From positions 25,556,954 to 25,620,953 of the forward strand of contig CP154954.1 of NCBI GenBank assembly GCA_039621445.1: 64,000 nt of DNA, written 5' to 3'. A program made the position numbers and the translations under genes. The notes beneath the pieces were generated by a model, which saw only the letters and a program-made list of their open reading frames with translations, was not told the origin of the DNA and searched no databases. This stretch comes from Euglena gracilis. Its lineage: Eukaryota. Within the stretch, counting starts at the first letter, position 1. Each line of letters begins with the position of its first letter. This document shows, one piece after another, positions 17,549 to 64,000 of the stretch.

Positions 17549-20500
17549 CCAGGGTGGGTGGATCCACGACAGTTCTGCGGAGAGCATAATGTACAAGGAA
17601 TTTTTAGGGGTAGGGTGGGCGGGTCTGCCGAGACCCCTCTCCCCGGAGGTTACCCCCAAGCAGCCAGAGGCACCACCAGTGGGGTTTTCGCCATCTTTGT
17701 TCTTTTTTTTTGGCACGAGGTGCCAAATTTTTTTGACCCCAAAGTTGACCCCAAAAAGCGGGAATCCCAGCTTTTAGGTTCATTTAACACATGTGCATTG
17801 CGCGTTGTGTGGGTGTGTGATCACTCCCCCCCCCCCCGGGTGTTGGTGGTGGTGCTGGTGGTAGTGGCTGCGGAGTCTTGTTGCTGTTGTTGTCGTTGTT
17901 ACGCCGTTGTTCTTGTTGCACCATGAATCCATACATTGTCAGGTCTTTTTTTTTTAAGGAACAGGGGGATCGGTTGTCCACCCACCCCCCGGGGGAGGGG
18001 GGTCTGGGGACCCTAACCAACCCACCCACTCTCGAAAATCCACCCCCACCACCACCACCATTGGTAACAATCACAGTTTTGATCAACGTTGTCCTTATCA
18101 AAGAATCCTGTTTTCTACACAGGATTCTTTTGACCATTGGTACGACAGGGCGCTTGCCCCCCCCCCCCCCAGGGCGCTTGGCTCCCCTCCTCCTCACATA
18201 CAAACTTGGCCCCCTAAGGTTGGGAAGCAGGTGTTGCCATCATCTTAACGTAATTGAATTTGAGAATTTTTTCGCCGAGGGAACTCTCTTTTCCAAACCT
18301 CACATTGTTTTGATATCTCCACATCCAAGTTTTCTTTTCTCCCTCATATTAACCCGTTTTTTTTATGTTTTTTGGTTTTCTTGCAACCGATATAAAAAAA
18401 TGAGCATTGCAGGCTGATCCTGCACTCAGCAAAGGAAGGAGTGGAGCTTTGGGGGATATCTCCTCCCTCGCAGGCAAGGGCACGCCGTCATGTTTGCGGC
18501 AAAAAAAATGTTGCAAGTATTTTGTTGCACGGGCAGCTCCATGGTCTGCCCTTATCTGCCACTCCTCTGCAAATCTCTACTGGCATACATTTCCTCAATG
18601 GCACTTATTTGAATCACAGGTGCAAGTTTCACCAAGTCCACCGTCTGCCAAGGGGAGGTATAGCACTGTTTTTTTTTTGCATTTGGCAGTGTGCTAGTGA
18701 CAGCTGCAGCGTTGGTACGGAGGAAGGTCTTTTTTTTGGACACATGTTGGAACCAATTGTCCAATGTAACTGACCCAGGATCCACAGTCCAAAATCAAAA
18801 TTTTCTGGATATTTTTGTCTTCTCCTGTGCATTTCACATGTTAGGGTTCGCCCGACCTTTGCCAACACAGGGATTTCTGAACCTTGAATCAGATTGCCAC
18901 CCTTGCCCCAAGGGCACCCTTTTTTGTGGCATATGCAGCAGCAACAAGGACTGTCTGCCCGGTGCCCATTGCACTGGACGCTGCCAGCCCGCCTTCCCCA
19001 CCCACTGTGTGGATGGCTCACACCCATGGATTCATTACAAACCTGCGTGACCCCCCCTGGGGGTTTTCCAAGAGTGGGTGGGTGGGTGGGTTAGGGTCGC
19101 TGGACTCTCCCCCCCCCCCCAGGGGTGGGTAGGGCAGTTGTTCAGATTTTTGCCCACCGAATGTCGGCCGGAAAATTTCGGCCGATTTTGGCTGGGTTTT
19201 GAGTGGGTGGTTGACCCGCCTGGGGGGGGGGGGGTCGTGGGTGGGTGGGTTTCAAAAAGCTGATGGGTGGGTTGCGAGAGTTCCAGAGACCCCGGGGTAA
19301 ACTGAGTGAATCTGTGCTCACACCGATGTGGCTCCGTGCCGTTTTGGACAGCAACCTGCAACCGGAAGTATTCAATTTGGCTTCCCCAATTTCTCCCAGA
19401 AGCAGCATCCTAACGCCTTAGAAAGCTGCGAGGTGGGGTTTCCTTATTTGTCACGTTAGGAAGAGAGGTCGGCTTCCTACACCCAGCCAGGGTGAAGGAA
19501 GGTGAGCCCCCACCAGAAAGTTGTCTTCTGAATAATGCAACCAGAAAACATGCGTGGGTCCAAGGGCGGAGTGTAACCCACCTTCGGACTCTCCTCCCAA
19601 TCTCCATAGCTTCCTCTGGGATTTGATTTTTTGGTGTTTTTATGTTTCGCCTGGCAGGGTGCAAATGCACATTTTTGCAGGAGTCTTCTCTTTTTTTTTC
19701 CGTGCGAGGTAACGTGCCCCAATCGCAGGTGCAAGGTCATAATGTGGACTGCCACGTTATGACCGCACACTGAGAGTTGGTGAGAGGAAGCTGGTTGTGT
19801 AAGAGGTTTGATGCCACCGACGCTTTCACTCAAACGAGTCGCAAGGTCGCAAGGCGCGCAGGTTCGCTGGGCTGGTTTCTCTCTCTATATGCCCGATCTA
19901 CCCCATCTTCATCCAGATCCACGCGTTGTGAATGGCCGCTGTAGATCGACGGGGGTTGGTGTGCTCTTTAAAGGGCCTCTGGGAATACGGGGGGTGGGGG
20001 CAGGCAAATGGACTGACAGGAAACAGAGGTTGGCTTCTGCTCCGTTGCCCAGCTCAGCCTGTCTGGTTATTCATTTTCTTTTTTTTGTGTGCAAGAACCA
20101 GGCCAGGGTTCGATATAAGCGTTTGGTGGAGGGTGTCCCCCCCTGGACCAGAGGGGTGGTCCGGACAGACCCTGGGGGGGGGGGGCACCTGTAACCCCCC
20201 AAAAGGTCAAAATTTTCCCTGGCATTTTGCGCCAAATTTTTTTGCATTTTTGACAATTTTTTGTCAAAGAGTGCCCAAAATGGCATTTATGGCCAGTTTG
20301 GGGGATCAAAAATTTTCGGCCCGGCGCTTCGGCCAAAAATCGGTCACTGGACCGGCCACTGTTTAGGTGGGGCCCCAGGCATTATTAATTACTTGACGAT
20401 TGACGATTTGTTCTTTTCGTGGCACGCCTTTTTTGAATGCCCAGTTCTTCTTGTGTCACAAAGGGTGCTGAGATCTGCGTGAGATGTGTCGCCCTCGAAC

Positions 20501-23500
20501 AAATGTGCTGTCAGAAAGTGATGTTCTTTAAGATGGGGGGGCAGGCTTTGTCCGGGACGGGGTGATATTGTTGCTTCCCGGGAAAAGCCTGCCAAAAGCT
20601 GAAATAATCGGGGATGCAAACTACCTCTCTTCCCCCTGCCCAGGACACACCATGTCGTTGACACCTCCCCTTTTCCAGAACACTACTTGAGGCTTTTCAT
20701 TGAACGACAGTGGCGTTGAGATGCCGTGTCGTTGGCACACACACCCCGTGTCAACAGCACATAGGATGCCCCCATCCCCCCCCCCCCGGGCGCTTGGCCC
20801 GGGCCATGATTGAAGGTAAGGTAAGGTAAGGCCAGTTGGCCAACCTGTTGGGGGTCCAAATTTGCGTGTTAAGAATTTTGGTGGCCATGTGCAAAAGGCC
20901 GAAGTTAATTTTAGGCGGCCAAGTTTGCATGTAAGGAGGAGGGGGGCCAAGCACCCAGGGGGGGGGGGCAAACGTCCAGGGGGGGGGGGAGGTAATTTTG
21001 GACAAACCTCCTGCAAGGAGTTTTTTTTGGAAAAAATGCATCGTCCAAATTAGAGCCCCCTTGGGATTATTCAGCAACGGGCCAAAAAGGTGGACCGGTC
21101 CCCTGTTTTGCAGGGTTAAGGCGGGGGAGGTTCGGGGGACTCACACGGGGGGGGGGTCAATTGAGGGCTAAAACTTCCCCCGCTTCGTGCCAGGAATAGA
21201 GCAAACCATCCCTTTCAGGGGGTATTCACTTGGCCTGACCCACCCCCCCCCAACTTTTTGGAGGAAAAAACACCTATTCTGGGAGATTTTCATAGTATTT
21301 TCACAGTCTTATGTGATTGAGGAGAGTTTGAGGGGTCCAGCTTTTGGACTTTTGCTGACAATCAGTCTTTATTCAGGGGGGGGGGGACTTGTTTCGAGAG
21401 GAGGATGGCCGGGTGGGTACTAAATTCCACACCACGTTTTTCTTCTTTAATTTTGGTGATTTGGCCCTGCACTGGGTCAAATGGCGCCAAGATCGCACAG
21501 AGAGAGAGGGCGTTGTTTTTTGCCACCCTCCCAATGGCAATAGTGGGTTCTCAAAGCATTGCTAAGCCTTGGCCGGGGGAGGACAGTTTTCTTCAAGACC
21601 TTCTGTTTGAACACAATGGTGCATGTCACGGTGGACAGTTGTCGCCCACACGTGGCCAGCCGGCGTCACTTTGGGACGGGTGTGCCATAAGCAGTTTCCA
21701 TGCGTCCAGGGGAAAATGTGCAGCAAAATGTTTCATTTCTTTTCTCAGATGTATGATTTTCTTTTGCTTTTTTCTCTCTGATTTCGCGCCTGTTTCGCAC
21801 TTTTTTACTGAAAATGTACTTTTTCTGCATTAAATGTGCATTTTTTATGCCTCTTTTCCTGAGTTTTCCGAGCCCCCCCCCCCCCCCCCTGCCCCTCCAC
21901 TCCTCCTCACCCCGTGCAGCAACCACTCCAGCCACCGCACCCACCCCCATGCCCAGCCCACCAGGCGGTGGGGAACGCTGCACTGCCCGGCCTCCTCCTC
22001 CTCTCCGCCTGCCGGGTGTCGTGGGTGTGTCGGGGGTGTGGCCTGCCCCTCTGCGGCTTTGGACCGGGAGGTCTTCCTCGCCGCGGTCATTGCTGCGGAG
22101 GGGCCGCCCCGCTCCCTCTGCCATTCCTCTGCCGTGGACGACCTGCTGGCCCCCCGAGGGAGTCTGAAAGGTCAGTGCAATGGCAATGGCCGGTCTGGAC
22201 CCCAATTCTCTTCTGGGTGGGGGTATGTTGTGGGGCCAACCCTCACCCACCCCAACGCCGCTCAAAAAAACTGGATCGTTCACTCAAACTTCAGGCTTCC
22301 CCCGTTGTTTTTTTTTTACGTTGGGGCTCCAGTTCCTTCCCTCAACCTTCCCATCTTTTTTTAGGGCCGTACAAAGGGCTTTCGTTGACACTTTTGGTTG
22401 CTATTTATTTATTTATTTATTTATTTGTTTTATTTATCTATTTATTTATTTAGAGGCTGGTTTTTTACGAATACTGGGAGGATGTTGGGGGCCGCGCCAC
22501 CTGCTGGTTGATAAAATCTGACTGAAAAACGTCCTGGCTCAGAGAGCGATTCCTGGAGAGACTAATTAGACGAAACGCCCCACACCCGGGGTGTGTGGGC
22601 CGATGGGGTAGAGGCAGGGCTGCCGCAACCCCGGTGTTGGGCAAATGGGACCCCCGTGGTTTGTAGTGGCCAACCCAGTGTCAGCATACTGCCTGGTGGG
22701 CGTGCAGGGACGCTGCGGTCGTAGTCTGCGGACCCCAGCGCTCCGTGATGCGGTGGCTTCGGTCTACGCCCAAATTCTTTCCCATCTGCCAACCGTTTCG
22801 ACTATTCTCACGCATCGTTCTCGTTGGTCTTTCTTGCACAGCATTCGATGATGGCAGATGGCAGACAGCAAAATGCCCGGCAAGAGGGATGATCCCAATG
22901 CAGATGAAAAGTTGTTCAGATGCGTCATTTTTTCAGTGTTTCTTCCCCTCCAGAGGTCGCCTGACCTTTCTGAAACAGCAAGTTGTTTGACCTTTGAATG
23001 AACAATAGCAACACAGCAAATGATATTGTTATTGCCTTTCCCCAGCCTGATCCTTGTTTTGTGCGCAAAAGAAATGACTTTATCATTTTGCCTTTACAAG
23101 GCTGGCCACCCTTCATCCAGACGTTGCCACCATACAGGATTTTTTGGTCACGAAAATAGTCACGGAATTTTTTCCTTAAATTAAAAGTTGAAAATTAAAA
23201 ATTATCGTTGGATTCCTTTTTTTTTACCGCTGTCCAATTTTATGTCTTCATTTTTCAGCCCATGTACAGCTCCCGCAGGGAGGTAGCCAGCCCAAGTTTC
23301 GGGCCCTGCAACCCCCCCCCGTGGTCCTGAAAGAGATGATTGGTTGATATGCCAGTGCACAGGCATAAAAGTTTGACCATGGCTCAGGTGCTTTCACTTT
23401 CAATTAATTGATGTCAATTCATTAAACACAACCGGACAACCACATGAACGTTTAGGAGAGATTTTTGGAAGACGTTTGAGAAATTGAAATCAGGTTGCCT

Positions 23501-24581: not shown

Positions 24582-28679
<4,098 letters not shown>

Positions 28680-30417
28680 CCGCCGCGCCTTCCGCTCGCC
28701 CTTCTCCCGGTGCCCTGGACCGCCCCTCCGCCTCTCTCGGGCATGCCCCGTCCTTCCCCCGTTGGTCCGCACTTAGGCGGCCGGATTCGCATTTAAACTT
28801 TTTTATGTTGATTTACGCATTTGTGCAAATGTGCGAATGTTTTGATTTCGGCTGTGAAGGTCAGGGGGGTTTGTGAAAACACGGCGACCAGAGAGTGCAA
28901 AAAATGAGCAAAATTCTGTCTTTGACGGCACGACCTCTGGGAAAAAATGGTGGTTTTGGGTGGTCCGAAAACGGGCTTTGCACGTCAAAACCCCTGGACC
29001 TTCCCTCCCCCCGGAAGCGAAAACAACACAAAAAAGCGACACAGGAATGGGACCTTTGCTGCCCTTGTTGCTCTTTTCGGCTGTCTCCCCGGGTATCCCC
29101 GAGCTGCCGGCAGTGTGTGTCCTGGGTGTTTGCCGGACTGCTTTGCTTGCGGCGCCTTGGTGTGGTGTTTTTGGTGTGTTTGTTGTTGTGTTGGTGCGTG
29201 CATTTGCGCAAATGAACACAATTTTGCCCTTCAAGGATTGGGCTTTGGCGCCCTTCAATTGACGCTGTCGATAAACGACGTGGCATAGGGGCCGTGACAG
29301 CACGGACCAGAGGGCCGTCCGGAAACATGGTCGGTTTGCCACACTGTTTGTCGACGGCGCAAGTAAATGCGCGCATGAACAAAAATGTGTTTATGCGCGC
29401 AGTTGCGCCCATCAACACAATTTGTGTTGGTGGGCGCAAATGGGTGCATAGACACAAAGAAGAAGGTCGTGACAGACACACAACCGTCAAACACCGGCAG
29501 CAGATGTGGTTCATTTGCGCATTTGCGCACATCGCATTTTTTTGTGGTGCAAATGCGCAAATGAACCGCATGAATAATTTTGTGCAAATTGCATCTGGTT
29601 CATTTGCGCATTTGTGCCCACAAAGAAAGTGATGCGCGCAAATGCGCAAATGAACCATCAATGGAGGAGTAAAAAGCGGCTCCATTTGGCCCTCCAACAG
29701 CTACCCTTAGTGGCTTCTGAATGGGTTCAACCCAAACAACCGCACCGTCTTCTTCAACGTCAGGTATTAGGGGTTAATTCTACTCTGGTGACAGGAAAGA
29801 TAGAGATAGAGGATCTCCTGAAGGTGGGTGCGCACCCAATAACGGCGCACGTCTGCTGGCACCGGTTTTAGGATCCCAAGGGCCCTGCCACTAACCAGCG
29901 GCCTGGGCTCCGCTGCTGCAGCCACATCAGCTGCCGGGCACCCACCAGACCGGAATCAACCTCCCCGATGCAACAACACCCAGCTTTAGCGACCACGTTA
30001 TTCCCCGCAACCGGGGCGTTAGACTGGTCTGACGACGTGGTGTTAGTGCGTGGCAACCGGCAGCCGGAGAAAGGTAGCCCTGAAGCACCCCATTACTTTG
30101 GGCGAAGTGGTGAACCTTTACCAATGGCTTGGTTGCATGAAAGCGGTTGGACTTGCTCCCCACAAGTTATGCACAAAAATTGGTGTGTTTTACATTTGTC
30201 GAGGGGAAAATGATGGAGAAGAACCAGAAAACGGACCCCGGCCCGAAACATCCTGGGTATTTTTTTTTCAGGTGCCAAATTTTGTCTTCTTGTGACGCAG
30301 CACTGTTGCAGGAAAGGTGTCGAACAGTCACAGGTCGTTGCACGTCATCAATTCATTACATTTAGCTTCCAGGCGAATGAGGCCAAAACAACCGGCCTTG
30401 TGGGCCGGGGAACAGCA

Positions 30418-30849
30418 GTACCCCCCCCCCCCTATGTCCAACGACCCCCCTATGTCCAATGACCACCCCCCCGGTCAGAGGACACCTTTTCGGAGGTTTG
30501 ACCAAATTTTTGGTCCCGGTGTGAAGCGCCGGGACGAAAAATTTTGCCCAAAAATTGGCCAAAAATTTGGCCAAAGTGCCATTTTTGACACTTTTTTTGA
30601 CAAAAATTTGTCAAAATTGCCCAAAATTTTCAGCGCGAAGCGCCGGAAGGGAAAATTTGGGCATTTTTGGGTGGGTTGGGTACTCATGGGGAAATTGGTG
30701 GGTACCCGGGTACCCACCAATTTTCTTTTGACCCCATGTCCAACGACCGCCCCCCCCCCCGGTCAGAGGACACCTTTTTGGTCACTACCCTATGTCCAAC
30801 GACCCCCCCCCGGTCAGAGGTTACCGGTCATTGGACATAGGGGGGGTAC
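30418..30849. mobile_element. MITE nested in the cargo element
   Basis: TIR GTAC(C)nTATGTCCAACGACC / GGTCATTGGACATA(G)nTAC; internal repeats ccccggtcagaggacacctttt. Confidence 0.8.
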
Positions 30850-30873
30850 AAATGTACACACGTAAATGCGCAC

Positions 30874-31535
30874 TGGCGAGAGCGGAACACAGCATTTACA
30901 AGGTACGTTGTGTCTGAACAAGCGAGCAAGGTTGACAGAGATGAAGAAGATACATCAGAGTATTCACTGGGAGAGTACGAAGTCGATCAGCAAGTCGATT
31001 GCGTACTGTACGAAAGAGGAAACCAGACACGGTAATCGACATGGCTGAAGAGCTTGACTTGACTGCGCCCTACGGCTGGCAGTTGGCGGTGATGAACATC
31101 ATCGCCAGGCCTGTATGCAAGAGAAGCATATACTGGTTTTGGGAACCCGACGGCAACGTTGACAAATCGGAGCTTTGCAGTTGGCTGGTGGCTAAGCATA
31201 ATGCACTCATGCTTTCGGGGAGACCAACTGATATGTATCATATGATATCCAAATTTCCGAAAAAAAGGAAGCTCATGACTATCGATCTCCCAAGATCCGC
31301 ACGAGAGTGTGTGAATTATGAAGCTATCGAACATATCAAGAACGGCCTAGTATTTAGTGGTAAATATGACAGTTGTCAGGTACAGTTTAACAGACCTCAC
31401 GTGATAGGCTTTTCAAACACAAAACCATTTACACACCAGATGAGCACAGATAGATGGTACGTCATCGATATCAGAGAACTCATGAAGAACCCGAAGTCGC
31501 ACGACGAAATAATTCAACGTAGTAAGTTAGCTTAA
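30874..31535 (+). pseudogene. rep: CRESS-DNA virus replication initiator (HUH endonuclease + SF3 helicase), 5'-truncated and frameshifted
   Basis: Motif II GTQHLQG and motif III YCTKEETR in ORF 30866-31048; frameshift at about 31031-31036. ORF 30999-31535 has YGWQ, Walker A GNVDKS, Walker B TIDLPR, IKNGLVFSGKYDS, motif C VIGFSN and arginine finger DRW. Motif I is absent. Confidence 0.95.
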
Positions 31536-32121
31536 TAGTTAGATCAAAAGAACTGTTGGTAGTATCAGCAGTAGCTACATAGGGTATAATATAACACATA
31601 TGCGCTAGACTCTCATCGTATCGTATCGTGATGCAAACTTATCAGATGTCTTCACCGTCATAGGTTTCTCACCGGTAAGCTTTGACACAGACAGATAACC
31701 AGTCAAACGCAGACTGCTCTTATTTCCTAAGGAGTTACTTCCTCGAACCCATCGGTTATTTTTCTTCTCCATGGCTAGCTCAAGCTGAGTATCAGGATCA
31801 TTTACATGACTCAAACGAACACCGAGCCAGAGGGCTCTCTGTGATTGACAGCTGGTGCACGAAATATCGTATTTGATTCCAAACACTCTGTATCCCAGAT
31901 AGAACTGAGGCATCCATTGATCGAACAGGTAGGCTTGATGACCATTGCCATCAGTGCGTGGCATGTAAATGGACGTCTGGTACTGTAAGCCCGAGTTGAT
32001 TATACTGGAATTCGCAACGTAGTGTTGGATGTCGACATAGTTGAGTTTAGTGAAAATCCTATCAGGAAGGCCGCGAGTAATATATGAGGTAGATGGACGT
32101 GCCGTAACCTTACGCCCGAAA
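31480..32121 (-). pseudogene. cap: CRESS-DNA virus capsid protein, 5'-truncated and frameshifted
   Basis: GLPDRIFTKLNYVD..SIYMP..GHQAYLFDQ..YRVFGIKY pattern seen in unclassified CRESS capsids. Removing one of three tandem ACGAT copies (about 31615-31629) restores ...RYDESLAHMCYIIPYVATADTTNSSFDLTIKLTYYVELFRRATSGSS* ending at 31480. Convergent with rep, with 3' ends overlapping by 56 nt. Confidence 0.88.
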
Positions 32122-35100
32122 GTGCAAATGCGCACACAAACACACCTATCACGTTCAAAAGCCTCGTAGGTCCGTGGGAATAATCAGTGTGTTTTAAGAC
32201 AGATATGTTGTTCGTTGCACGCCATTGCACAAACCATCCACATACCAGTTTCCCCAAGACGTTGGTGCGCACAAATGCGCCCATAAACAAATTATGTTTG
32301 TGCGCTCATTTGCGCCCACAAACATGTATTTTTACCTTCAACGTTTTGCATTTTATTTGTGCAAGTGCGCAAATAAACATATTGTGTTTATTTGCGCAAA
32401 TACGCGCATAAACACACATCAGTTGCATGACGGCTGACGTAGTCTGTAGCATCTGATCTAATAAGGCTCCGTGTGTTCCTACGGGCGGCTGCAGTATCCA
32501 AGCCAGTTCAGGCTCCGTGACAGCACCAGTGCCAATAGTCGTAACAGTGGGTGTGTGCTTCCAACCTGTTTGATGCACGAGAGCACCAATCTCTCCCTCC
32601 ACCCCCTTCACGTCATTTGGTAAGCGGCATTTGCACCAAACCTCCTGGAGTTGATCCCCTTCAACACAGGGTTGCCGCAGTTCATAAACTGTTTTCCGTC
32701 TGTCAGGGTACAGGGTCCCAGAAATTCCGTAAAAATTATAAATTTGCGCAAATGCGCCCATTTCAAAGAAAAAAACCCTCGAATCCTGCCGCCTAAGCCG
32801 CACCCACCCCGCCCCCTCCCTCTCGCCTCCTGCGCCGCCCGCTCCTCCAATCGCATGCACAGCTGTCTCAGCCGCACCTCCGCGGCCGCCATCCAGTGGA
32901 ATCCGGTGGACGTGCAAGTCAGCCCTCAGCCTCAGCCCATCGCCGGGCAATGTCGTTCCATAATTTTGTGGTCTCAAAAAAATGGGAGGGGAGTGAGGGA
33001 GGGAGGAGGGAACCCGACGTGTAGGGGGACGTGTGGTAGGGAACGACGTGTAGTAGGGAACCTGACGGGTGGGGGGTCCAGCCAGACACAACTCTCCAAC
33101 AATCTCTGGGCCCAGACAATGGCAACCCCCCCCTTCTTCGCCGAGCCCCCCACCCACCGGCAAAACCCGGGCTGAACCGAGAAATTTTTGGTGCAAGGCG
33201 CCGAAATTTTTTAAAACGGGGTCCAAAGTTGCTTCAAACAACGGCATTTTTGGGTCGTTTTCGGATTTCAAATTTTGGATAAAAAAATGCCAACTGGCTG
33301 GGTTTGGGCTTTGGGGGGTATTTTTTGGGTACCAGCCGGGCCCAGCTCCCAGCCGGCCGGACCCCCCCCCCCGGAACCCTCCAGCCAGCACCTTTTCCAG
33401 CCGGTCCGCGGGACCCCACCCCCCGGGGTGCTTAAGAAAACCCCCAGTGGTGGCTGGCTGGCCGACCGGGTGGGTGCCAAAGCGGACCCCCTAGGTCGTG
33501 AGAAAGCTTGGCTCCTCACGCCCGTCGGGTTGGCTTCCCAACCCAAGTCACCCCATTCCTCCTGGGAAGGAATGGAGGGGGCGGCCCCCGGCTCTTTTCG
33601 ACGCCCCTCCCCCCTTTGGGCCGCGCCTCTGCCATGTGTGCCTCTTGCCTGTCGGGCTCCCGCCCTTGCCCCCGTCCCCCTCTCCCGGCTTGCCCAGTTT
33701 GGTCCGTGTGCTCGCTCTGGCGCTCTGAAGCGGCTGCGACGATCGGCGGTCGGAGGCGGGGGAAGGTTCTGGGTGGGGCCGGGGCTGGAAGGAATCCCTG
33801 GACCCCTATGGTGGTGGGCGGGAGCACACAATCACTTGGTCATTGGCCAACCCCCCTGAGGGGTGGGTGACTGATTTTTTTTCCAGATTTGATTAATGTT
33901 TTTTTTGGCCCGGTCGACCCCTTCCCCTGAGGGGGGAGGGGGTCGACAGAAATCACTTAAGTGGACAGGCATCGAAGGCGTGGAAAAATTCCTCACCCAC
34001 AAAAATTTTTGTGTCCAAAATGAACTGGATTACTGTACCACAATTTCAGCCCTAGGTGGGGTTCATAGAATCATAATTTGGGTTTGTCTTTTGTCCCAAA
34101 TCTGCATCAATTGAAACAGTTGCATGGTGAGGGTGGACCCCTGTCCAGGTCGGTGGGACGCGGTCCAACCCCCGCTTCCCATTTTTCTGAGCCGCCGGTT
34201 TTTAGGTCAAATCTTTCCTCGTGAACCGCCATACGGTGGGTGGGGCCGGCTTTCCGGTACAGACAGCGGTGGGTGGGGCAAACGCCTGTGCGCACGTCGC
34301 CCAAGACCGACGCCCCCATCCTCCTGGGTGGCCGTCCGTGCGTCTGTGTGGCCGCCGTGCCCCCCGCTCTGTCGGGCGGCGCGGCTTCCCCACAGCCAAG
34401 GTTCTCCTGCTCCCCATCCGGCCGCGTGTCCTTCCGACTGTTCTGTTGGGGGATTGGGGCATTGTCTGTGAATGATTCTCTGTTGTCTGACACCCTTTTT
34501 TGAAGAAAAAAAATCATCCTTGGTGATCTTTGTCCAATTTATGCGAGCGGCCGAGCTCAGGTAACGGCCGGGGGCGGTCCCTACCGAAATTTCAAACTGC
34601 CACATTACGCCTCCAAGCTACGGCTGAGGCATTTGGTTTGTAACGGCGTCTTGTTTGATGCCAAAGGTTCCATGAAGCGATGGCCGCACAAACGCCTTAT
34701 CCCAACCAGAGTAATGGTCCCCAAAGCACGACTTTCGTCGCACTCCTAATTGCAGGGCAGTGTTGGCGGCGCCAAACCCTTTTTGCTTGTCCCCCGCCGC
34801 CACCGCCCCCCCCCCCCTGCCTCGGACTGCCTGGCCTCCCCGCGGCCGGGGTCTGGGGCCGGCCTGCCACACTCTGTCCCACCCCTCGGCCAGGCGTCCA
34901 GATCAGATTTTTACCCAAGAGCAATTTGCGTCACATTTGAACATTTTCCGATTTTTTTGCCAACAAATTCCATACATTTGGCATCAGTATGTACAAAAAT
35001 CACAAAAAACCTTGGTTTGAGACTTTTTTTGAAAAAAGGAAAATGCGAATGCCAGTTCAAGACGAGCACCAATTTAATTTGCATAATGGGAAAGACCATC

Positions 35101-53012: not shown

Positions 53013-54120
53013 GGTAGGTGGTGATTTTGGTGGATTGGCGATGGTCCAAGGGTGCTGGAAATCAACTTTTTCCAACGACAACCTGTTTTTACCGAGAATT
53101 TTCTCATTTTCGCCTTTTTTTCCCTTGCGGATGCTGAGTTGAATGTGGGCATTCTGAGTGGTTTTTTTATTTAAGGACTGCCCTTCTCATCAGTCATTCA
53201 TCCCCCCCAAAAGGTTTATTTCGAGCTTATTTTGGCTTTGGTAGCCTGTGGAATACCAAATTTCTTAAAATGCTAAAAGTGTGTGGATGGGGTTGGCTCA
53301 GACCCACCCACCCACCCACCCAACCCTGCCCCCCCAGGGGTCAGCAAAACGTAAAAAAAAAAAAGCTCAAACTTTTCTGATGTCAATGCAAACGGAGAAA
53401 TGGACCGCACTCCAATGAAAAGAAACTCTGATGGGTTGATTTTGGAAAGAATTGGTGGAAATTCAACGGACAATTAATACGCACACCCCCCAGGCCAAGG
53501 TTGACTGTAAGGTTCAGGGGAGGGGGGGGGGGGCAAGTGGGTACCCCGCTGGAGGCTGGGCTTTGCTCTATTTTTGTGCCAAGGCCCGTAAATGTTTGGA
53601 TCCCAAATTGCCGCCCCCCAAAGTGGGTCCCCCGAGCCCACCCTCCCCCCCCGGTCCCCCCCCCCCTGGGGTGGGGGGAGGGTCCAGACCGCCCCCCCCC
53701 CCGGTCCCAAAAGCCACCTCAGATCGACGCCCTTTTCCGACGGTGAAACTGGACGGAATGTTCCCCAAAGACCCATGCCAGTTCCTTGTCACGGCCGCCG
53801 GGCTCCCGGTGAGTGTGCTCATCCTTCCCTCTGAGGTGTCGACATCGCCCCCGGGGCTGAGCCCCCCTGGGCGTCGGGTGCCTGGCCTTGCCCACACCCG
53901 GCCCAGGGGTGGCTGGGCCCAGATGTCCCCGGCCGCCTTCCGGGGCGGCTCATCTCTCCCAGTCTTGATGGTCCTTTTTGTGACAGACTTTTGTTTGTCC
54001 CGCCATTTTTTGAATGTGCTCTGTAACCCCCCCCCCCCGGCGCTTAATCCCCCCTTTCATGCAAATTTGTACCCCTAAAGTTGGCCTTGGCTCCTAACTT
54101 ACATGCCCTACCCTCCCTCA

Positions 54121-56210
54121 GGCGGCGCATCTCGCACTTAAGTTTTTTTTGTCGATTTTCGCTCATCGACCATTTTTTTATTTGGGTGCTGGCGTTACAA
54201 GGGGAGAGAGTGAGAGGCAGCAGGATAGGAAAAAATACGGGCGATTTCTCATTTTTGGCACCGGCTCTCCTGAGAATTACGCTTTTTTGCTGTTTTTTTT
54301 TGGTGGTCGGAATGACACGAAAACCCCCGGACCTGTCCCCCCAAAATGAAAAACACCGACAAAAGCACCAAAATGCCGGTACCGCCTTCCCCCTTTTGGT
54401 GCGATGCGACTCTCCTCACTGGTTCAGCCATGTTTTGAACAAATAAAGCAGGTCGATGTGCGCAATTGCGCACATCGTCCATTCGATGATTGCCTGAAGA
54501 ACGTCCATAAATGCTCCAAGATTCATACTTTTGAAAACGGTGGGTCAAATACCGTGAGTTTGGGGGCGAAGATGAGATCGGTTTGTTGGAGACCCTGGCT
54601 GGCTCCCTCCAGGGGTTTTTGACGCACTTTTCTTGTTTTTGCCGGCCTAAGACTTTTGTTCGTTTGCCAGAGCGCGGAGAACAAGCATGGGGGGTAGGGG
54701 GGCTCCAATCACGCCGCCGGCCCGTGCAGAGAAAGTGGTTTGAAGGGGAGGGATGGGTCGCGAGTCCCCACCGAACTTGCAGTGGGATGCGTCCGGCCAA
54801 ATTGTATCGTGATGAAATGGGAGAATTGATGACACAGATTTCACTGGAATGATTTTTTTGTTGCGCAAATGCGCACATTCGACAACGTGTGCGCATTTGC
54901 GCACACCAAACTCATGTCCCTTTCCATGAAGCGGGAACGGGCCTCGCTGATTTGAGCTTTTTGAAACAAACAATAACTGAAAGAGCTTACCATGCAGCTT
55001 TGCTCTGAAAACAGACAGAAATACACTAGAAGCATCAATTACCAGGTCGGAATTAAAGAAAAAGTGGTCGGTTTGCGCAAATGCGCACGTGGTCCGCATT
55101 TGCACACTTTCAAACACCGACCACATGTGTAAAGGTTGACGTTGTCGGAGTGCGAAATGGGCACACCATGATAACGTGCGCATTTGCGCACACCAACCAC
55201 GATAGCAAAATTCAGACAGAACACATCAAACACGACCCCAAACACCACCTGTAATGGCTCCTTCGGTGTGCAACTTACTCAGCTGCCAAACGCTCTCCTC
55301 AACGATGAGGCTGTTTTCAAGGCCAATTCTGGTCCAGTGACAGGTCCAGGTCCATGTGGAGACCGTAGACCTCTGGTAGGTGGTCCGCCGCTCGCACGTC
55401 ACGACACACGTGCAATGACTCTGCTTGGGGTGGCCCTCGAAAACCCCCGCCACTTGCCCCCTGGCTTGCGTTTTGCTGCACCAGTCACATCAGCTGATGA
55501 TAGCTGGTTGCACTTAAGCATCCACCAGGCCGTCATGAACCCCCGGTTCAGCAGCAGCCACCGACGTTGTGGAATTGGATCCCCATTCAGACAATCAAAA
55601 AAAACCAAAAAAAAAAAAGAATAAAAAACAAACAAAATAAAAAAAAAAACACAAAAAAAAACAAAAAAAAACCAGCCGGGACGGCAGACTGGGTGGGCGG
55701 GCAAGCTGCTAGTCCATGGAAACAATGGAAAATGGGGCAACTCATTCTTTTGGAGGTAGAGAATATTTGATGTTTACACCTGGTTGGGTTGCGTGAAAGT
55801 ATTGGGACTCAGCACCCTTGTTTTTCTGAGGGAAAAATGAGGCATTATTATTGTGGCAAAAACAGAAAAATTGTCCTGGCCAAGGCGTCAGGAAGATTAC
55901 ATATGCGTAATTTTTGAGATTCTGGAAGTCGTTATTTTTTTGAAGAAAGGTGTCCAGCAATCATGGGGGGTTACACATCATCGATTCCTCCCCGCAATTT
56001 CCAAACTGATGGCACGAAAACGATTGGTCGTACGAGTTGGGGATCAGATATGCAAAATTTGCCCTTGGAGAGGACAATAATTCTCCTGTCATATAGTGTG
56101 TTCCACTGCACGTTACGCATAACATAGAAAAACCAAATTTTCTTCACCACACAATATCTTCAACACAATAGTTTGCGCACACAGTGGTCAGTGTGCACAA
56201 ATGCACACGT
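54121..56210. mobile_element. Second member of the TGCGCAAATGCGCA cargo-element family (right end not found)
   Basis: Left end TCA|GGCGGCGCATCTCGCACTTAAGTTTT resembles TTA|GGCGGCCGGATTCGCATTTAAACTTTT at 28776; motifs and hairpins at about 54458, 54862-54903, 55073-55106, 55150-55192 and 56173-56208. Confidence 0.6.
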
Positions 56211-57345
56211 CAATTGTTAAGGATGAAGAGCACTCTATAACACGGGGGCAAAACAAAGGCACATTTACAAGCCACCGTTCTATGTCACAAATTGCAAAAT
56301 GATTTTTTTCTTCACTTCTTGTCCCTTGACCTCCTTGTATGCAAGCCTGGCCCTTTGTTAGCTCTGTTTCTTTGGCATTTCCCCCATATCTGATTGCAGG
56401 CGCATTTCCCAGAGGTTGCCCCCCCCGTCTTAAGTCTTGGCTGGGAAGGACGTCGTGCAAGTTGGGGGGCGGTTGTTGGAGTTAGGTTTTGGGGGGGGGG
56501 GGGCAGGAACCGGCATGGTACAGCGATGTGTGCTTATCCTGAAATGGTAACTCAGATAAGCCTGAGACCCCCAACTACAGTTTGGATCAGCCCGACCCTC
56601 AAATACGGATTGATGAGGATAATGGAATGATGGATTGGTAAGGAAAATAAGCATGACGAACGAGGATTCGACAGGGACGGGAGTGGGTGTGAAGCAGCCC
56701 AGTGTCAGCGTACATCAGCGTGTATTGGATGTAGGCCATTCTGTTTTATTCTGGTGTTTTGGATGGTTGACCAGCGTTGCAACTAAGGAAACCACAGATA
56801 ACGACTTTTTACACGGAAAATTGCAAATTTCGGATGACCACGGATAACCGCGGTTTATACGGATAATTGCCATTTTGTATGAACAAAAAAAACATAAAAA
56901 ATTCCATTCCCAGCATGGTGTGTGGAGGGCGATGTGCTCCCACAGGGGTATGCCAACATGTCTCCACCCCTGGAGGCGTGTCCAGCACTTGGGCCCCTGT
57001 CCGCGACGCATATCCGTCTCGGCGCCTTTGTCCCGTCGTCCGTCGCGTCCCACCGCCCATCCCGTCCCATTGGGGAGCCCCACTTCCTCCGGCGTCTGCT
57101 CCTCTCCGTGCGTTGCCATCCCATGGGTTTGGTCTCTTCTTGCCTGCTGTGCCCCCCCCCACTCAGAAGCCCCCCCTCCCCGGAGGGATTTAGATGGTCC
57201 GATTTGGTCCGATTTAGATGGTCCGATCAAAACTGAACATTTTTCCCCACCTGTCAACCCCCAGTGAGAGATACTCAAAATTTTGTTTGAGGGTGTGCGG
57301 AAACAGAACGCAACTTTTTTGCAAGTTTTTGTAGGACCGTTTGTA

Positions 57346-62950: not shown

Positions 62951-63664
62951 CTAAGTCAAAACAGGCCAAAGCTGCACAAAATGGCCAATTTATGGCTTAA
63001 CGGCTTAATTTTTTTTAATTTTTTTAATTTTTGAAACATTTTGAAAAAATCAATATTTGACCGAAAAACGGCCCAAAAAAAACACCCAAAAATGGCCGTT
63101 TTGGGCTGCAAAAGCACGCCAGAACACGGCGGCCAAAACGGCGAACGGGGGGCGATGGAGGGCCTCCGGGGGTACATTTCGTCAGACCGACATTTCCGGA
63201 TATAATGTACGTTTTCTCGAGATATTTTCGAAAAATCGATTTTTTGACCGATTTTTTTGACCCCGGCGAAATGGCAGAGTTGGAAGAGTGGGGGGGGGGG
63301 GGCGGGCCAATCCTACCCAGTTTGGACCCCTTCGCACGTGAATAGCTCGGGCCTGGCGTGGAGTTGGGGGTCAAACCCAGGTGATTCGGAAACTAGAAAT
63401 CCAGTCGCTCGTGACTGGAAAAAAAATTCCGGAACGGAGCCGGAATCATGGTGATAATCCGCCGGTTCCCAAGGTGGTCCCGACCGGGGGGGAGGGGGGG
63501 GGGTCCGACCCCCCCTTTTCCCCAGGGGTAAGCTTCGCTCTTTCTCTAAAGAGGTAAGAGCTCAGCGACCCCCCCCCACTTATAAACCCCCCTTGCAAAC
63601 AAACCAGATCTTATAAACTCCGGGGGTTTATAGGATAGGCGCTCGGTGTTTTTCATTCATCTCA

Positions 63665-63700
63665 GGCGGCCGATCTCGCACTTAAAACGTATTTGTGTTC
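63665..63700 (+). mobile_element. Third left end of the GGCGGC..ATCTCGCACTTAA element family
   Basis: TCA|GGCGGCCGATCTCGCACTTAAAAC, nearly identical to the end at 54121. Confidence 0.55.
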
Positions 63701-64000
63701 CTTTGGGCAATTTGCAGAAGAACAAAAAGGTTGTTTGGTTATTTTTTCAAGGGGTCAAGGTCCAGGTTTTTGAATTTCTGTCTGTGGATTTTCGCAACTT
63801 TCCGTGGTGAAACCAAGGGGAAAGGCCAAGACCAGGGGTTTTATTAAGCCGGAGGGGGTCCTATCCCCCCCGGGGGGGGGGGGGGGGGTCCAGTCAGCCA
63901 GCAGCTCAAATCCAGCCAGCAGCCCAAATTCGGGCTGGGAGCCCACCCCGGGGGTCGAGTGAAATAAAGTTTGGTCCAGCCCGGCCAGAGGCCGGGCCAG

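What the first reader, a model, noticed from the sequence alone, without database searches (positions are those of the whole stretch)
28776..32793. TIR element built as a repeat-and-cargo array that has captured viral DNA
Seen: a 14-bp TIR bounds 4 kb with no transposase. Inside, variants of TGCGCAAATGCGCA(C) recur, often as inverted pairs: GGTTCATTTGCGCATTTG..CAAATGCGCAAATGAACC forms two tandem hairpins at about 29508-29656. The repeats separate mutually unrelated segments of about 0.1-1.25 kb, and one segment is clearly viral. Inference: the repeats may be capture or recombination sites, making this a mobile archive of foreign DNA (cassette- or spacer-like) and possibly a small-RNA immune memory in a euglenid. 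The conservative alternative is a Pack-type PIF/Harbinger derivative whose repeats are transposase-binding sites.
Basis: partly seen in the sequence, partly recalled or inferred. Interest (0 to 1): 0.9.

Follow-up and report, generated by a model that had tools for sequence, protein, structure and literature searches.

The report
Transposon copy carrying a fossil virus
This is one old copy of a very abundant, non-coding DNA transposon whose repeated hairpin motifs belong to the transposon itself, and it holds, as a one-off insertion, the dead remains of a tiny circular single-stranded DNA virus rather than being a purpose-built archive of foreign DNA.

Summary
An 18-nt inverted repeat (17/18) at 28772-28789 and 32780-32797 bounds 4,026 bp and is flanked by a 5-bp direct repeat, CCGCA. 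TGCGCAAATGCGCA-type motifs are about 55-fold enriched in the window and form strong hairpins. One segment is viral.

The interpretation mostly fails. In two DNA runs every non-viral part of the element has a summed contig depth 10^3-10^4 times the single-copy level, so these parts are family backbone, not foreign cargo. Two further family members lie in the window (B from 54117, C from 63661). B is collinear with A and carries its first hairpin at the same distance (~745-775 nt) from the left end. The motif arrays sit symmetrically, 51 nt from each terminus, as expected for transposase-binding sites.

Only two parts are secondary insertions: a TA-flanked MITE (30421-30846) and a single-copy 1.25-kb CRESS-DNA virus fossil. 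The fossil has Rep lacking about 57 N-terminal residues, Cap lacking its N-terminal arm, no origin, a mutated Walker A, two frame breaks and no RNA reads.

PIF/Harbinger membership is not supported, because TTA belongs to the TIR.

Two leads remain. The virus lies between the only two exact AAATGCGCAC copies in the element. The termini of B and C (CTCAGG...) resemble the euglenid nonconventional-intron splice code.

The parts
28767..28771 (.). CCGCA, left copy of the candidate 5-bp target-site duplication
   Evidence: Read. The same 5 nt adjoin the right TIR. The chance of this, given the flank composition, is about 0.0074.
28772..28789 (+). Left terminal inverted repeat, CTTAGGCGGCCGGATTCG
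   Evidence: I22. The three left termini A, B and C become alike exactly from CTYAGG onwards.
28814..28841 (.). First motif pair, its core 43-51 nt from the left end
   Evidence: It mirrors the last motif, which lies 51 nt from the right end.
28842..29196 (.). Backbone segment shared in part with element B (GGTGGTC.GAA ... AAAACCCC.GGACCT block)
   Evidence: Alignment. Summed contig depth is 178,000-552,000 against about 60 for single-copy sequence.
29187..29660 (.). Left motif array: a unit at 29187-29224 and hairpins at 29384-29458, 29504-29575 and 29590-29660
   Evidence: (D1-D3, I1, I4, I7, I8) and the folds. Hairpin cores lie 745/775 nt from the left end, against 746/774 nt in B.
29661..30420 (.). 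Motif-free central backbone
   Evidence: Collinear weak homology to B: 29613-29933 ~ 55158-55496 and 30312-30415 ~ 55945-56047. Summed depth is 57,000-391,000. No Pfam family was found.
30421..30846 (.). Nested MITE with a C-run/TATGTCCAA... TIR, flanked by TA on both sides
   Evidence: I15 and I16 (20 nt, 100%). TA at 30419-30420 and 30847-30848 is read. Summed depth is about 1.3-1.5 million.
30864..30873 (+). AAATGCGCAC, left copy of the direct repeat that brackets the viral insert
   Evidence: the exact 10-mer occurs only twice in the element, at the two edges of the virus, both on the + strand.
30875..31535 (+). CRESS-DNA virus Rep remnant. HUH motifs II-III lie in one frame (30875-31033) and the SF3 helicase in another (31035-31532). 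About 57 N-terminal residues are missing.
   Evidence: Pfam Viral_Rep E=1.2e-9, profile 32-82 of 82. tblastn extents are. 76 relatives were found. Walker A reads GNVDKS against G in 56 relatives.
31480..32114 (-). CRESS-DNA virus capsid remnant, lacking the arginine-rich N-terminal arm. The frame is broken near 31615-31623.
   Evidence: 307 relatives with R-rich N-termini. 18 of 19 IMG/VR loci that encode a relative also encode a Rep. 2 of 20 hits carry PF02443 and 1 is named capsid. Run X2 lacks 5 nt at 31615.
32126..32135 (+). AAATGCGCAC, right copy of the bracketing direct repeat
32121..32420 (.). Right motif array: a unit at 32121-32141 and paired units at 32258-32330 and 32348-32420
   Evidence: (D1, D3, I11).
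32421..32741 (.). Right backbone segment
   Evidence: Summed depth 49,000-121,000.
32742..32760 (.). Last motif, its core 51 nt from the right end
32780..32797 (-). Right terminal inverted repeat. It has 1 mismatch, and the copy lacks 7 nt that the family consensus has just inside it.
   Evidence: I22. The family consensus of the right end comes from 32 contigs (loose end at 32774).
32798..32802 (.). CCGCA, right copy of the candidate target-site duplication
54117..56213 (+). Element B, a diverged family member. The left terminus is CTCAGGCGGCGCATCTCGCACTTAAG. Motif hairpins lie at 54459, 54862-54903, 55074-55190 and 56176-56210. No right TIR was found.
63661..64000 (+). Element C: the left terminus CTCAGGCGGCCGATCTCGCACTTAAA of a third member, which runs off the window

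Best explanation
Window 28772-32797 is one aged copy of a non-autonomous, cut-and-paste-type TIR transposon. It belongs to a family present in the order of a thousand or more copies in this genome. Its superfamily is unassigned.

The TGCGCAAATGCGCA-type palindromic modules are part of the family's own architecture. They form arrays in both arms, begin at the same distance from each terminus, and probably act as multiple binding sites for the family's unseen transposase or an accessory protein. This last point is inferred, not shown.

After its origin this copy received two unrelated insertions:
- a TA-flanked MITE;
- about 1.25 kb of a small ambisense CRESS-DNA virus genome (rep -> <- cap).

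The viral DNA entered at one motif site, which is now duplicated on both sides as AAATGCGCAC. It lacks the 5' parts of both genes. By analogy with its relatives, the replication origin lies inside the first ~60 nt of rep, in the missing stretch. The likeliest route is therefore illegitimate or microhomology-mediated joining of a viral molecule opened at or near the origin and trimmed at both ends, into a break or stalled fork in a hairpin-prone motif (inferred).

The viral genes are dead and apparently silent. The insert is unique to this copy, so nothing shows that the transposon ever spread it.
For: Element boundaries:
- The TIR is 18 nt, 17/18 (I22).
- Three window termini and the consensus of 32 contigs agree from CTYAGG inwards and differ outside it.
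- An adjoining 5-bp direct repeat, CCGCA, has p~0.0074.

The interior is family backbone, not cargo:
- Summed contig depth of the non-viral bins is 49,000-552,000 in X1, against 59-71 for the viral bins and 58.9-83.2 for the single-copy flank bins. The pattern is the same in X2.
- B is collinear with A at the TIR, the hairpins and two interior blocks.
- Hairpin cores lie 745/775 nt (A) and 746/774 nt (B) from the left end. The first and last motif cores lie 51 nt from either end of A.

The motif is not viral:
- There are 0 TGCGCA in the 6 Rep-related viral contigs.
- AATGCGCA occurs in 1 of 19 Cap-related contigs.

Identity of the virus:
- Pfam Viral_Rep E=1.2e-9.
- 76 Rep relatives at about 50-61% identity, on 1-2.3 kb contigs.
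- 307 Cap relatives. 18 of 19 Cap loci also hold a Rep. PF02443 and the name 'capsid' occur among 20 hits.

The virus is single-copy and genuinely integrated:
- Single-copy-depth contigs bridge 30824-32049 (X1), 30840-31418 and 32067-32248 (X2), and the element's left junction at 28466-28799 (both runs).
- These contigs carry a few differences from the window, so they are not the same reads.

Decay:
- Rep starts at the equivalent of residue 58-59 of a 267-aa relative.
- Walker A has D where 56 relatives have G.
- Rep changes frame near 31034. There is a 5-nt length difference in cap at 31615.
- No NANTATTAC is present in the element.

The origin lies in the missing part:
- L001 and L002 have a stem-loop with GTAATACTG 43 nt into rep.
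- 64 of 69 full-length relatives have GNT or VIL in the first 50 residues.

Integration at a motif site: the exact 10-mer occurs only at the two edges.

Expression: depth is 0 over 31016-32020 in both RNA runs, of which about 5-6% of the reads were read.
Against: - No autonomous partner or transposase was found. 14 ORFs in the element, 2 in B and the 10 largest window ORFs have no transposase domain, so both the superfamily and the binding-site role are inferred.
- The 5-bp duplication rests on this single copy. B has no detectable right end.
- Abundance comes from summed contig depth, which the tool warns is not a copy number. No genome was held, so other copies could not be collected and inspected for further foreign inserts.
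- A-B homology in the interior is weak (57-63% identity). The right-arm match is barely above shuffles.
- Both virus junctions fall on an identical motif copy. This is what a capture-site model predicts, so a role for the motif in acquisition is not excluded.
Confidence: 0.75

Rival explanations
1. The motifs are dedicated capture or recombination sites, and the element family is a mobile archive of foreign DNA (cassette- or spacer-like) that may feed a small-RNA immune memory.
For: The viral insert is bracketed by the only two exact AAATGCGCAC copies in the element, both on the + strand. Other copies of the family could not be inspected for further foreign inserts.
Against: - Only one segment is foreign and it is single-copy. 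Every other inter-motif segment is high-copy family DNA.
- B shares block order and hairpin position with A.
- The MITE insertion ignores the motif on its left and uses TA.
- No RNA read lies on the viral part in 2 RNA runs.
- The motif is symmetric about the termini, like binding sites.
Confidence: 0.04
2. Pack-type capture. The transposon acquired the viral fragment during transposition-linked gap repair or template switching, as Pack-MULE and Pack-CACTA elements acquire gene fragments, and carried it to this locus. The family is a PIF/Harbinger derivative.
For: The element is non-coding, TIR-bounded and carries a foreign fragment. Its junctions lie at a short repeated sequence. TTA and TAA sit next to GGCGG.. 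at the two ends.
Against: - The viral part is at single-copy depth in both DNA runs, so no transduplicate family exists at 90% identity or above.
- TTA/TAA is inverted, not direct. It is TCA in B and C, and TAA again in the 32-contig consensus, so it behaves as TIR sequence.
- The adjoining direct repeat is 5 bp.
- No DDE_Tnp_4 or Myb-like ORF was seen.
Confidence: 0.1
3. The family is a transposon source of euglenid nonconventional introns. Its TIRs carry the CAG/CTG splice code, so copies that land in genes are removed from RNA.
For: - B and C begin CTCAGGCGGC, that is, CAGG at TIR positions 3-6.
- With one flank base this gives the 3-nt donor spacer of the published code. The paired ends follow (PMC12501133 passages; PMC4770533 passages).
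- For A, removing the element plus one 5-nt duplication gives pyrimidine|purine at both junctions and a 6-nt acceptor spacer. One extra base at that spacer is tolerated.
- A MITE-like origin of these introns is proposed but no source family is named in the passages read.
Against: - A and the 32-contig consensus have TAG/CTA, not CAG/CTG. Single changes to TAG or CTA abolished splicing in the cited experiments.
- Geometry predicts a 4-nt, not a 5-nt, duplication for exact excision with the standard 5-nt spacer.
- No RNA reads lie on A's flanks and no RNA joint is listed.
- CAG within the first 4 TIR positions is expected by chance in about 6% of TIRs (my estimate).
- The organism was not verified as a euglenid.
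Confidence: 0.12
4. Artefact: an assembly chimera, or free virus DNA contaminating the assembly.
For: CRESS viruses are frequent contaminants (general knowledge, not tested here).
Against: - Contigs from two other runs, at single-copy depth and with their own differences, bridge both virus junctions and the element's left junction.
- Both genes are truncated at the junctions and there is no origin.
- A 1,376-nt contig from another source encodes the same truncated Rep and Cap (P0002, P0078).
Confidence: 0.01

Closest known systems
Non-autonomous TIR transposons with subterminal repeat arrays (e.g. dSpm/CACTA, Ds; recalled, no call)
   Same: Short TIRs, no coding capacity and high copy number. 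A short motif is repeated in both orientations through both arms and placed symmetrically with respect to the ends.
   Different: The terminus CTYAGGCGGCC and the 5-bp flanking repeat fit none of the superfamily signatures I recall. The arrays reach about 880 and 680 nt inwards and form long hairpins. No partner transposase is known.
PIF/Harbinger - Tourist elements
   Same: TTA next to a G-rich TIR, and a CTTAG-like context at the left end. This target preference is recalled.
   Different: The trinucleotide is inverted between the ends (TTA...TAA), is TCA in B and C, and is conserved in the family consensus, so it is TIR sequence and not a duplication. The adjoining duplication is 5 bp.
Pack-MULE / Pack-CACTA transduplication (recalled)
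   Same: A non-autonomous TIR element carrying a fragment of unrelated coding DNA between its arms.
   Different: The fragment is viral, not a host gene. It is single-copy, so mobilisation is not shown.
Endogenous CRESS-DNA virus elements in protists (Entamoeba, Giardia: PMC7493932; search listing and start of abstract only)
   Same: Rep- and Cap-derived sequence integrated in a unicellular eukaryote's genome. Such an element can be used to link an orphan virus clade to a host.
   Different: Here both genes of one ambisense genome are kept together, minus the origin-bearing stretch, inside a transposon. No paper in the library holds both 'Euglena' and 'Cressdnaviricota' (0 hits).
Small environmental CRESS viruses near 'Picobiliphyte sp. 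MS584-5 nanovirus' and 'CRESS virus sp. ctwD22'
   Same: Rep helicase 52-54% identical (P0045, P0009), up to 61% to unnamed ones on 1-2.3 kb contigs. The gene arrangement is ambisense.
   Different: In a quick tree the fossil plus P0002 sit on a long stem (1.13) outside the main clade of 70 rows (the careful search was not finished). The closest Rep relative with DNA in hand, L001, has an unrelated capsid.
Euglenid nonconventional introns (PMC4770533, PMC12501133, PMC11282704; passages only)
   Same: Base-paired ends, CAG(G) near the 5' end in B and C, short direct repeats at the borders, and lengths up to several kb.
   Different: A has TAG/CTA. There is no evidence that any of the three copies lies in a transcript or is spliced.

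Membership tests
Class II TIR transposon (non-autonomous) | Terminal inverted repeats shared by several copies, with unrelated flanks | tested here: met
   18-nt TIR. Termini A, B, C and the 32-contig consensus agree from CTYAGG inwards and the flanks differ.
Class II TIR transposon (non-autonomous) | Target-site duplication directly adjoining the TIRs | tested here: met
   CCGCA at 28767-28771 and 32798-32802, p~0.0074. This rests on one copy only.
Class II TIR transposon (non-autonomous) | Multiple copies in the genome | tested here: met
   Summed contig depth is 10^3-10^4 times the single-copy level in 2 DNA runs (not a true copy number). There are three members in the window.
Class II TIR transposon (non-autonomous) | An autonomous partner with the same TIRs that encodes a transposase | not testable with these tools
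   No genome is held. No transposase domain was found in 26 window ORFs scanned.
PIF/Harbinger | 3-bp TWA target-site duplication (direct) | tested here: not met
   TTA on the left against TAA on the right. TCA in B and C. TAA in the family consensus. It behaves as part of the TIR.
PIF/Harbinger | DDE_Tnp_4-type transposase plus a Myb-like ORF in autonomous members | not testable with these tools
   No autonomous copy is available.
Pack-type transduplicating element | A captured fragment carried to new loci (more than one copy with the same insert) | tested here: not met
   The viral part is at single-copy depth (59-71 in X1, 132-147 in X2).
Cressdnaviricota-derived endogenous element | HUH Rep endonuclease motifs and an SF3 helicase | tested here: met
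   Pfam Viral_Rep E=1.2e-9 covering motifs II-III (HLQG, YCTK). Motif I is missing. The helicase is 50-61% identical to Reps.
Cressdnaviricota-derived endogenous element | A capsid gene of the kind found beside Rep in small circular genomes | tested here: met
   307 relatives. 18 of 19 loci also hold a Rep. R-rich N-arms. PF02443 in 2 of 20 hits, and 1 named capsid. The fold was not tested.
Cressdnaviricota-derived endogenous element | Origin stem-loop with a NANTATTAC nonanucleotide (needed for a replicating genome) | tested here: not met
   None in 28776-32793. In relatives it lies in the 5' part of rep, which is missing here.
Cressdnaviricota-derived endogenous element | Joined to host DNA | tested here: met
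   Junction-bridging contigs at single-copy depth in two runs.
Spacer/cassette archive (CRISPR-, integron- or piRNA-cluster-like) | Several different foreign segments separated by the repeat | tested here: not met
   One foreign segment. The rest is high-copy family DNA.
Spacer/cassette archive (CRISPR-, integron- or piRNA-cluster-like) | Small RNAs or transcripts from the archived segments | tested here: inconclusive
   0 reads on 31016-32020 in 2 RNA runs, with only 5-6% of the reads read. The 'size fractionation' run holds 150-nt reads, not small RNAs.
Euglenid nonconventional intron | CAG at +4..+6 and CTG at -8..-6 with paired ends | tested here: inconclusive
   B and C have CAGG at TIR positions 3-6 but their 3' ends are unknown. 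A has TAG/CTA.
Euglenid nonconventional intron | Lies in a transcript and is removed from it | tested here: not met
   Depth is 0 on A's flanks in both RNA runs and no RNA joint is listed. Sampling was weak.

The most novel reading that the evidence does not exclude
This abundant TIR family and its relatives share the CTYAGGCGGCC terminus. It may be the long-sought 'MITE-like' source of euglenid nonconventional introns. Under this reading its inverted termini carry the CAG(G)/(C)CTG-plus-pairing splice code, so insertions into genes are excised from RNA. Its hairpin-prone motif arrays would be fragile sites that now and then trap extrachromosomal single-stranded viral DNA, as happened here.
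Probability: 0.1. Interest if true: 0.8.

Novelty: new member of a known kind. Interest (0 to 1): 0.35.

Why it matters
The finding was flagged as a possible new kind of mobile immune archive. The evidence instead points to an ordinary arrangement: a decayed copy of a hyper-abundant non-autonomous transposon that happens to hold a viral fossil.

Three things are still worth keeping.

1. The fossil preserves both genes of one small CRESS-DNA virus. It gives a host link for a clade otherwise known from 1-2.3 kb environmental contigs. In the open literature I searched, no CRESS element is described for Euglena. This depends on the organism being a euglenid, which I could not check.

2. In this clade the replication origin seems to be written into the first codons of rep (GNT or VIL). 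The fossil lacks exactly that stretch. This says something about how such viruses become linear and integrate.

3. The family's termini and its 5-bp duplication fit no superfamily signature I know of, and in two of three copies they resemble the euglenid nonconventional-intron code. That gives a concrete, testable candidate for the transposon origin of those introns.

Tried and rejected
- Whole genome: none is held, so copies could not be collected.
- Rfam scan of the window: 0 families.
- Metagenome scan with the 14-nt TIR: 120+ loci, each with a single hit. None has the extended terminus or the motif (0 of 126 loci).
- IMG/VR scan with the 19-nt terminus: 0 hits.
- IMG/VR scan with the 15-nt motif: 44 contigs, 43 with one hit each and one with two. 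By my estimate this is about the chance level.
- Sequencing-run search: no RNA holder is listed.
- True small-RNA mapping was not possible. The 'size fractionation' run has 150-nt reads.
- The joint 28462->33380 looked like a possible empty allele. Both sides are copies of a hyper-abundant C-run/G-run MITE-like repeat and the shorter side is only 18-22 nt, so I rejected it as evidence.
- Right end of B: not found with up to 6 errors, nor with a flank-based pattern.
- hAT-like 8-bp, TA and TTAA duplication models were checked by eye. They do not give adjoining direct repeats.
The PDB profile search gave 0 hits. Cluster look-up gave no names.
- Literature string search for the terminus together with 'Euglena': no Euglena paper among the 10 listed of 178 that hold 2 or more of the terms.
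- Taxon: I could not verify 'euglenid'. The 10 largest ORFs have no Pfam family and the run organism is coded.
- A-B right-arm homology is barely above shuffles (score 40 against a shuffle maximum of 36), so I do not lean on the spacing argument.

Full report
**What is there**

The sequence between 28772 and 32797 is bounded by an 18-nt inverted repeat, CTTAGGCGGCCGGATTCG / CGAATCCTGCCGCCTAAG, with 17 of 18 positions complementary (I22). In the 6.5 kb around it there are 16 inverted pairs of this quality, against none in 40 shuffles.

The same terminus occurs twice more in the window, in the same orientation: at 54117 (element B) and at 63661 (element C, which runs off the window). It occurs once more as the consensus of 32 contigs from other genomic copies. 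That consensus reads CCCTTAAGTGCGAATCCGGCCGCCTAAGAC at the right end (loose end at 32774).

The three left termini become alike exactly at CTYAGG, and their flanks are unrelated. With that boundary, the five bases CCGCA adjoin the element on both sides (28767-28771 and 32798-32802). Shuffling the flanks gives this by chance in about 0.7% of trials. I take it as a 5-bp target-site duplication, on the evidence of this one copy.

**The motif**

TGCGCAAATGCGCA with up to two mismatches is found 25 times in the window, where 0.45 are expected. Twelve hits are in the element, 12 in element B and one at 52695.

The units are about 28 nt long, nearly palindromic, and often paired head to head. As single strands they fold into hairpins of -18 to -33 kcal/mol, with z-scores of -3.9 to -10.

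The arrays fill about 880 nt at the left and 680 nt at the right. The outermost motif core lies 51 nt from either terminus.

**The interior is backbone, not cargo**

No genome is held for this window, so I laid the contigs of two DNA runs on 27800-33800 at 90% likeness or above.

- The viral bins have a summed depth of 59-71 in run X1 and 132-147 in run X2. The single-copy flank bins read 58.9-83.2 (X1) and 119.8-159 (X2).
- Every non-viral bin of the element reads 49,000-552,000 in X1, and about twice that in X2.
- The nested MITE reads 1.3-1.5 million.

The tool warns that this sum is not a copy number. Still, three to four orders of magnitude leave no doubt that these parts belong to very abundant repeat families.

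Element B, though diverged, is collinear with A:

- the terminus and the first ~300 nt align;
- the hairpins align;
- 29613-29933 aligns with 55158-55496 (58% over 344 nt);
- 30312-30415 aligns with 55945-56047 (63% over 104 nt).

The cores of the first hairpin lie 745/775 nt from A's left end and 746/774 nt from B's. The match in the right arm is barely above shuffles, and I do not use it.

Fourteen ORFs in the element and two in B have no Pfam family except Viral_Rep. The ten largest ORFs of the window have none.

**Two secondary insertions**

The first is a MITE at 30421-30846, with 20-21-nt TIRs (I15 and I16) and TA on both sides. Its left flank has no motif.

The second is the viral piece. 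The frame 30866-31048 matches Pfam Viral_Rep (E=1.2e-9, 38.7 bits against a cut-off of 26), but only profile positions 32-82 of 82. Motifs II (HLQG) and III (YCTK) are there; motif I is not.

From 31035 another frame encodes the SF3 helicase. It has 76 relatives, mostly about 270-aa Reps on contigs of 1-2.3 kb, at 50-61% identity. Among them are 'CRESS virus sp. ctwD22' and 'Picobiliphyte sp. MS584-5 nanovirus'.

On the other strand, 32114-31480 encodes a protein with 307 relatives of 220-250 aa.

- The relatives have arginine-rich N-termini.
- They sit beside a Rep on about 2-kb IMG/VR contigs in 18 of 19 loci.
- Among 20 profile hits, two carry Pfam PF02443 and one is named a putative capsid protein.

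The arrangement rep -> <- cap, with overlapping 3' ends, is that of a small ambisense CRESS-DNA virus. tblastn with ten relatives finds no other viral locus in the window.

**State of the virus**

- Against a 267-aa relative, Rep begins at about residue 58-59. Cap begins at about residue 32-36 of 239-243.
- The Walker A loop reads GNVDKS, where 56 relatives have G at the fourth place. Only the 86%-identical P0002 shares the D.
- Rep changes frame near 31034.
- Cap changes frame near 31615-31623. There run X2 has five bases fewer than the window, and the 96%-identical P0078 reads through.
- No NANTATTAC nonanucleotide is present anywhere in the element.
- No read of either RNA run lies on 31016-32020. 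Only 5-6% of each run was read.

So the genes are dead and probably silent.

**It is really integrated and is single-copy**

Contigs at single-copy depth bridge the MITE/virus junction (X1 30824-32049; X2 30840-31418), the virus/motif junction (X2 32067-32248) and the element's left junction (28466-28799, both runs). They differ from the window at a few places, so they are independent of the assembly.

P0002 (Rep) and P0078 (Cap) start at the same truncated ends, within the motif, and are both listed on a 1,376-nt contig. I take this to be the same locus in another strain or close relative. I did not trace it.

**How the virus probably got in**

The exact 10-mer AAATGCGCAC occurs only twice in the element: at 30864-30873 and at 32126-32135, both on the + strand. 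These positions lie directly outside the limits of viral homology at 30875 and 32114. All other motif copies in A differ from this 10-mer. That pattern looks like one motif site duplicated by the insertion, not two old units.

The motif is not viral. TGCGCA is absent from all 6 Rep-related viral contigs, and AATGCGCA occurs in 1 of 19 Cap-related contigs.

In the two closest relatives with DNA in hand, the origin stem-loop lies inside rep, 43 nt after the start codon: GCGCTAG-GTAATACTGAAT-CTAGCGC in L001 and GCGGGGGAAG-GTAATACTGATA-CTTCCCCCGC in L002. The codons GNT spell part of the nonanucleotide. Of 69 full-length relatives, 64 have GNT or VIL in their first 50 residues.

The stretch missing from the fossil therefore surrounds the origin. 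It comprises the cap 5' part, the short intergenic region and the first ~170 nt of rep.

My reading is inferred, not shown. A viral molecule opened at or near the origin nick and trimmed on both sides was joined, by end-joining or by microhomology-mediated template switching, into a break or stalled fork at a hairpin-prone motif.

A random hit inside one of the nine near-exact motif sites of the ~2.3-kb backbone would have a chance of about 4%. A hit somewhere in the hairpin regions would have about 25% (my estimate). The coincidence is suggestive, but it is a single event.

**Which transposon family**

Here the trinucleotide is:

- TTA at the left end and TAA at the right end, which is inverted rather than direct;
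- TAA again in the 32-contig consensus;
- TCA in both B and C.

It therefore belongs to the TIR.

A second family in the window shares the first 10 nt (TTAGGCGGCC) and the general shape of the terminus: TTAGGSGGCCAAGTTTGCATGTAAGG at 15675(-), 18217(-) and 20911(+).

From recall, a 5-bp duplication is typical of Transib and some Ginger elements, but their termini differ. I leave the superfamily open.

The symmetric, bidirectional motif arrays work like the subterminal binding sites of CACTA, Ac/Ds or P-type elements (recalled). That function is inferred.

Euglenid nonconventional introns are defined by four features: CAG(G)/(C)CTG at +4..+6(+7) and (-9)-8..-6, paired ends, a 3-nt donor spacer with a 5-nt acceptor spacer, and a purine at the start of the downstream exon. 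One extra base at the acceptor spacer is tolerated. A MITE-like origin is suspected, but no source family is named in the passages I read (PMC4770533; PMC12501133; PMC11282704).

B and C begin CTCAGGCGGC. With one flank base, this puts CAGG at +4..+7. For A, removing the element plus one CCGCA gives C|A at both junctions and a 6-nt acceptor spacer.

Several points weigh against this lead:

- A and the family consensus have TAG/CTA, changes that singly abolished splicing in the cited work;
- the geometry would suit a 4-nt duplication better;
- no RNA covers A's flanks;
- I could not confirm that the organism is a euglenid.

I rate it a lead with odds of roughly one in eight.

**Verdict**

The 'mobile archive / immune memory' interpretation is not supported. 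The element is a non-autonomous TIR transposon of an abundant, unclassified family, with a nested MITE and a unique, decayed CRESS-DNA virus fossil.

In the open literature searched, no paper holds both 'Euglena' and 'Cressdnaviricota'. The one Euglena paper on endogenous viruses found concerns giant viruses and does not mention ssDNA or CRESS. The fossil may therefore be a new host record, if the taxon is right.

Noticed in passing
L001:440-480 and L002:1365-1410; Rep relatives P0004-P0077: In this clade of small CRESS viruses the origin stem-loop, with GTAATACTG in its loop, lies inside the rep ORF 43 nt after the start. The conserved N-terminal GNT (or VIL) codons spell the nonanucleotide. 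64 of 69 full-length relatives show the residue pattern, but the DNA was checked in only 2.
   Followed up: partly
window 30421-30846; also 28330-28490 and 33160-33440: A hyper-abundant MITE-like family (C-run ... GGGTACC ... AAAATTT ... G-run) has a summed contig depth about 20,000 times the single-copy level. In RNA run X24 the reads are strongly one-sided: 40.8 with the first mate on the - strand against 2.5 on the + strand. Copies of it flank element A on both sides and explain the 28462->33380 joint.
   Followed up: partly
window 15643-15675 (-), 18208-18240 (-), 20911-20942 (+): Three termini of a second TIR family, TTAGGSGGCCAAGTTTGCATGTAAGGAGGAGG, share the first 10 nt with the family studied. 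This suggests several families served by related transposases. No partner ends were found.
   Followed up: partly
window 54117-56213 and 63661-64000: Two more members (B, C) of the family lie in the same orientation as A within 35 kb. B holds a long A-rich tract at 55590-55670 and has no detectable right end.
   Followed up: partly
window 59920-60180: A long (TATG)n / (GGAT)n-type microsatellite.
   Followed up: no
window 52470-52660 and 52860-52990: Two local repeat arrays just upstream of B: units around GGCGGACA..GGCGTAAAT.., and a palindromic CCTCCGCGGAGG-type array.
   Followed up: no
P0001: A 347-aa, GC-rich Rep homologue (38% identical) with a long unrelated N-terminal extension, on a 3,083-nt contig. 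It is possibly another endogenous copy in a different eukaryote. It sits on a long branch in the tree.
   Followed up: no
window 28396-28770 joined with 32802-32963: The proline-rich frame that ends at 28770 stays open across the restored empty site. It is probably a GC-rich chance ORF, since no RNA reads lie there.
   Followed up: partly
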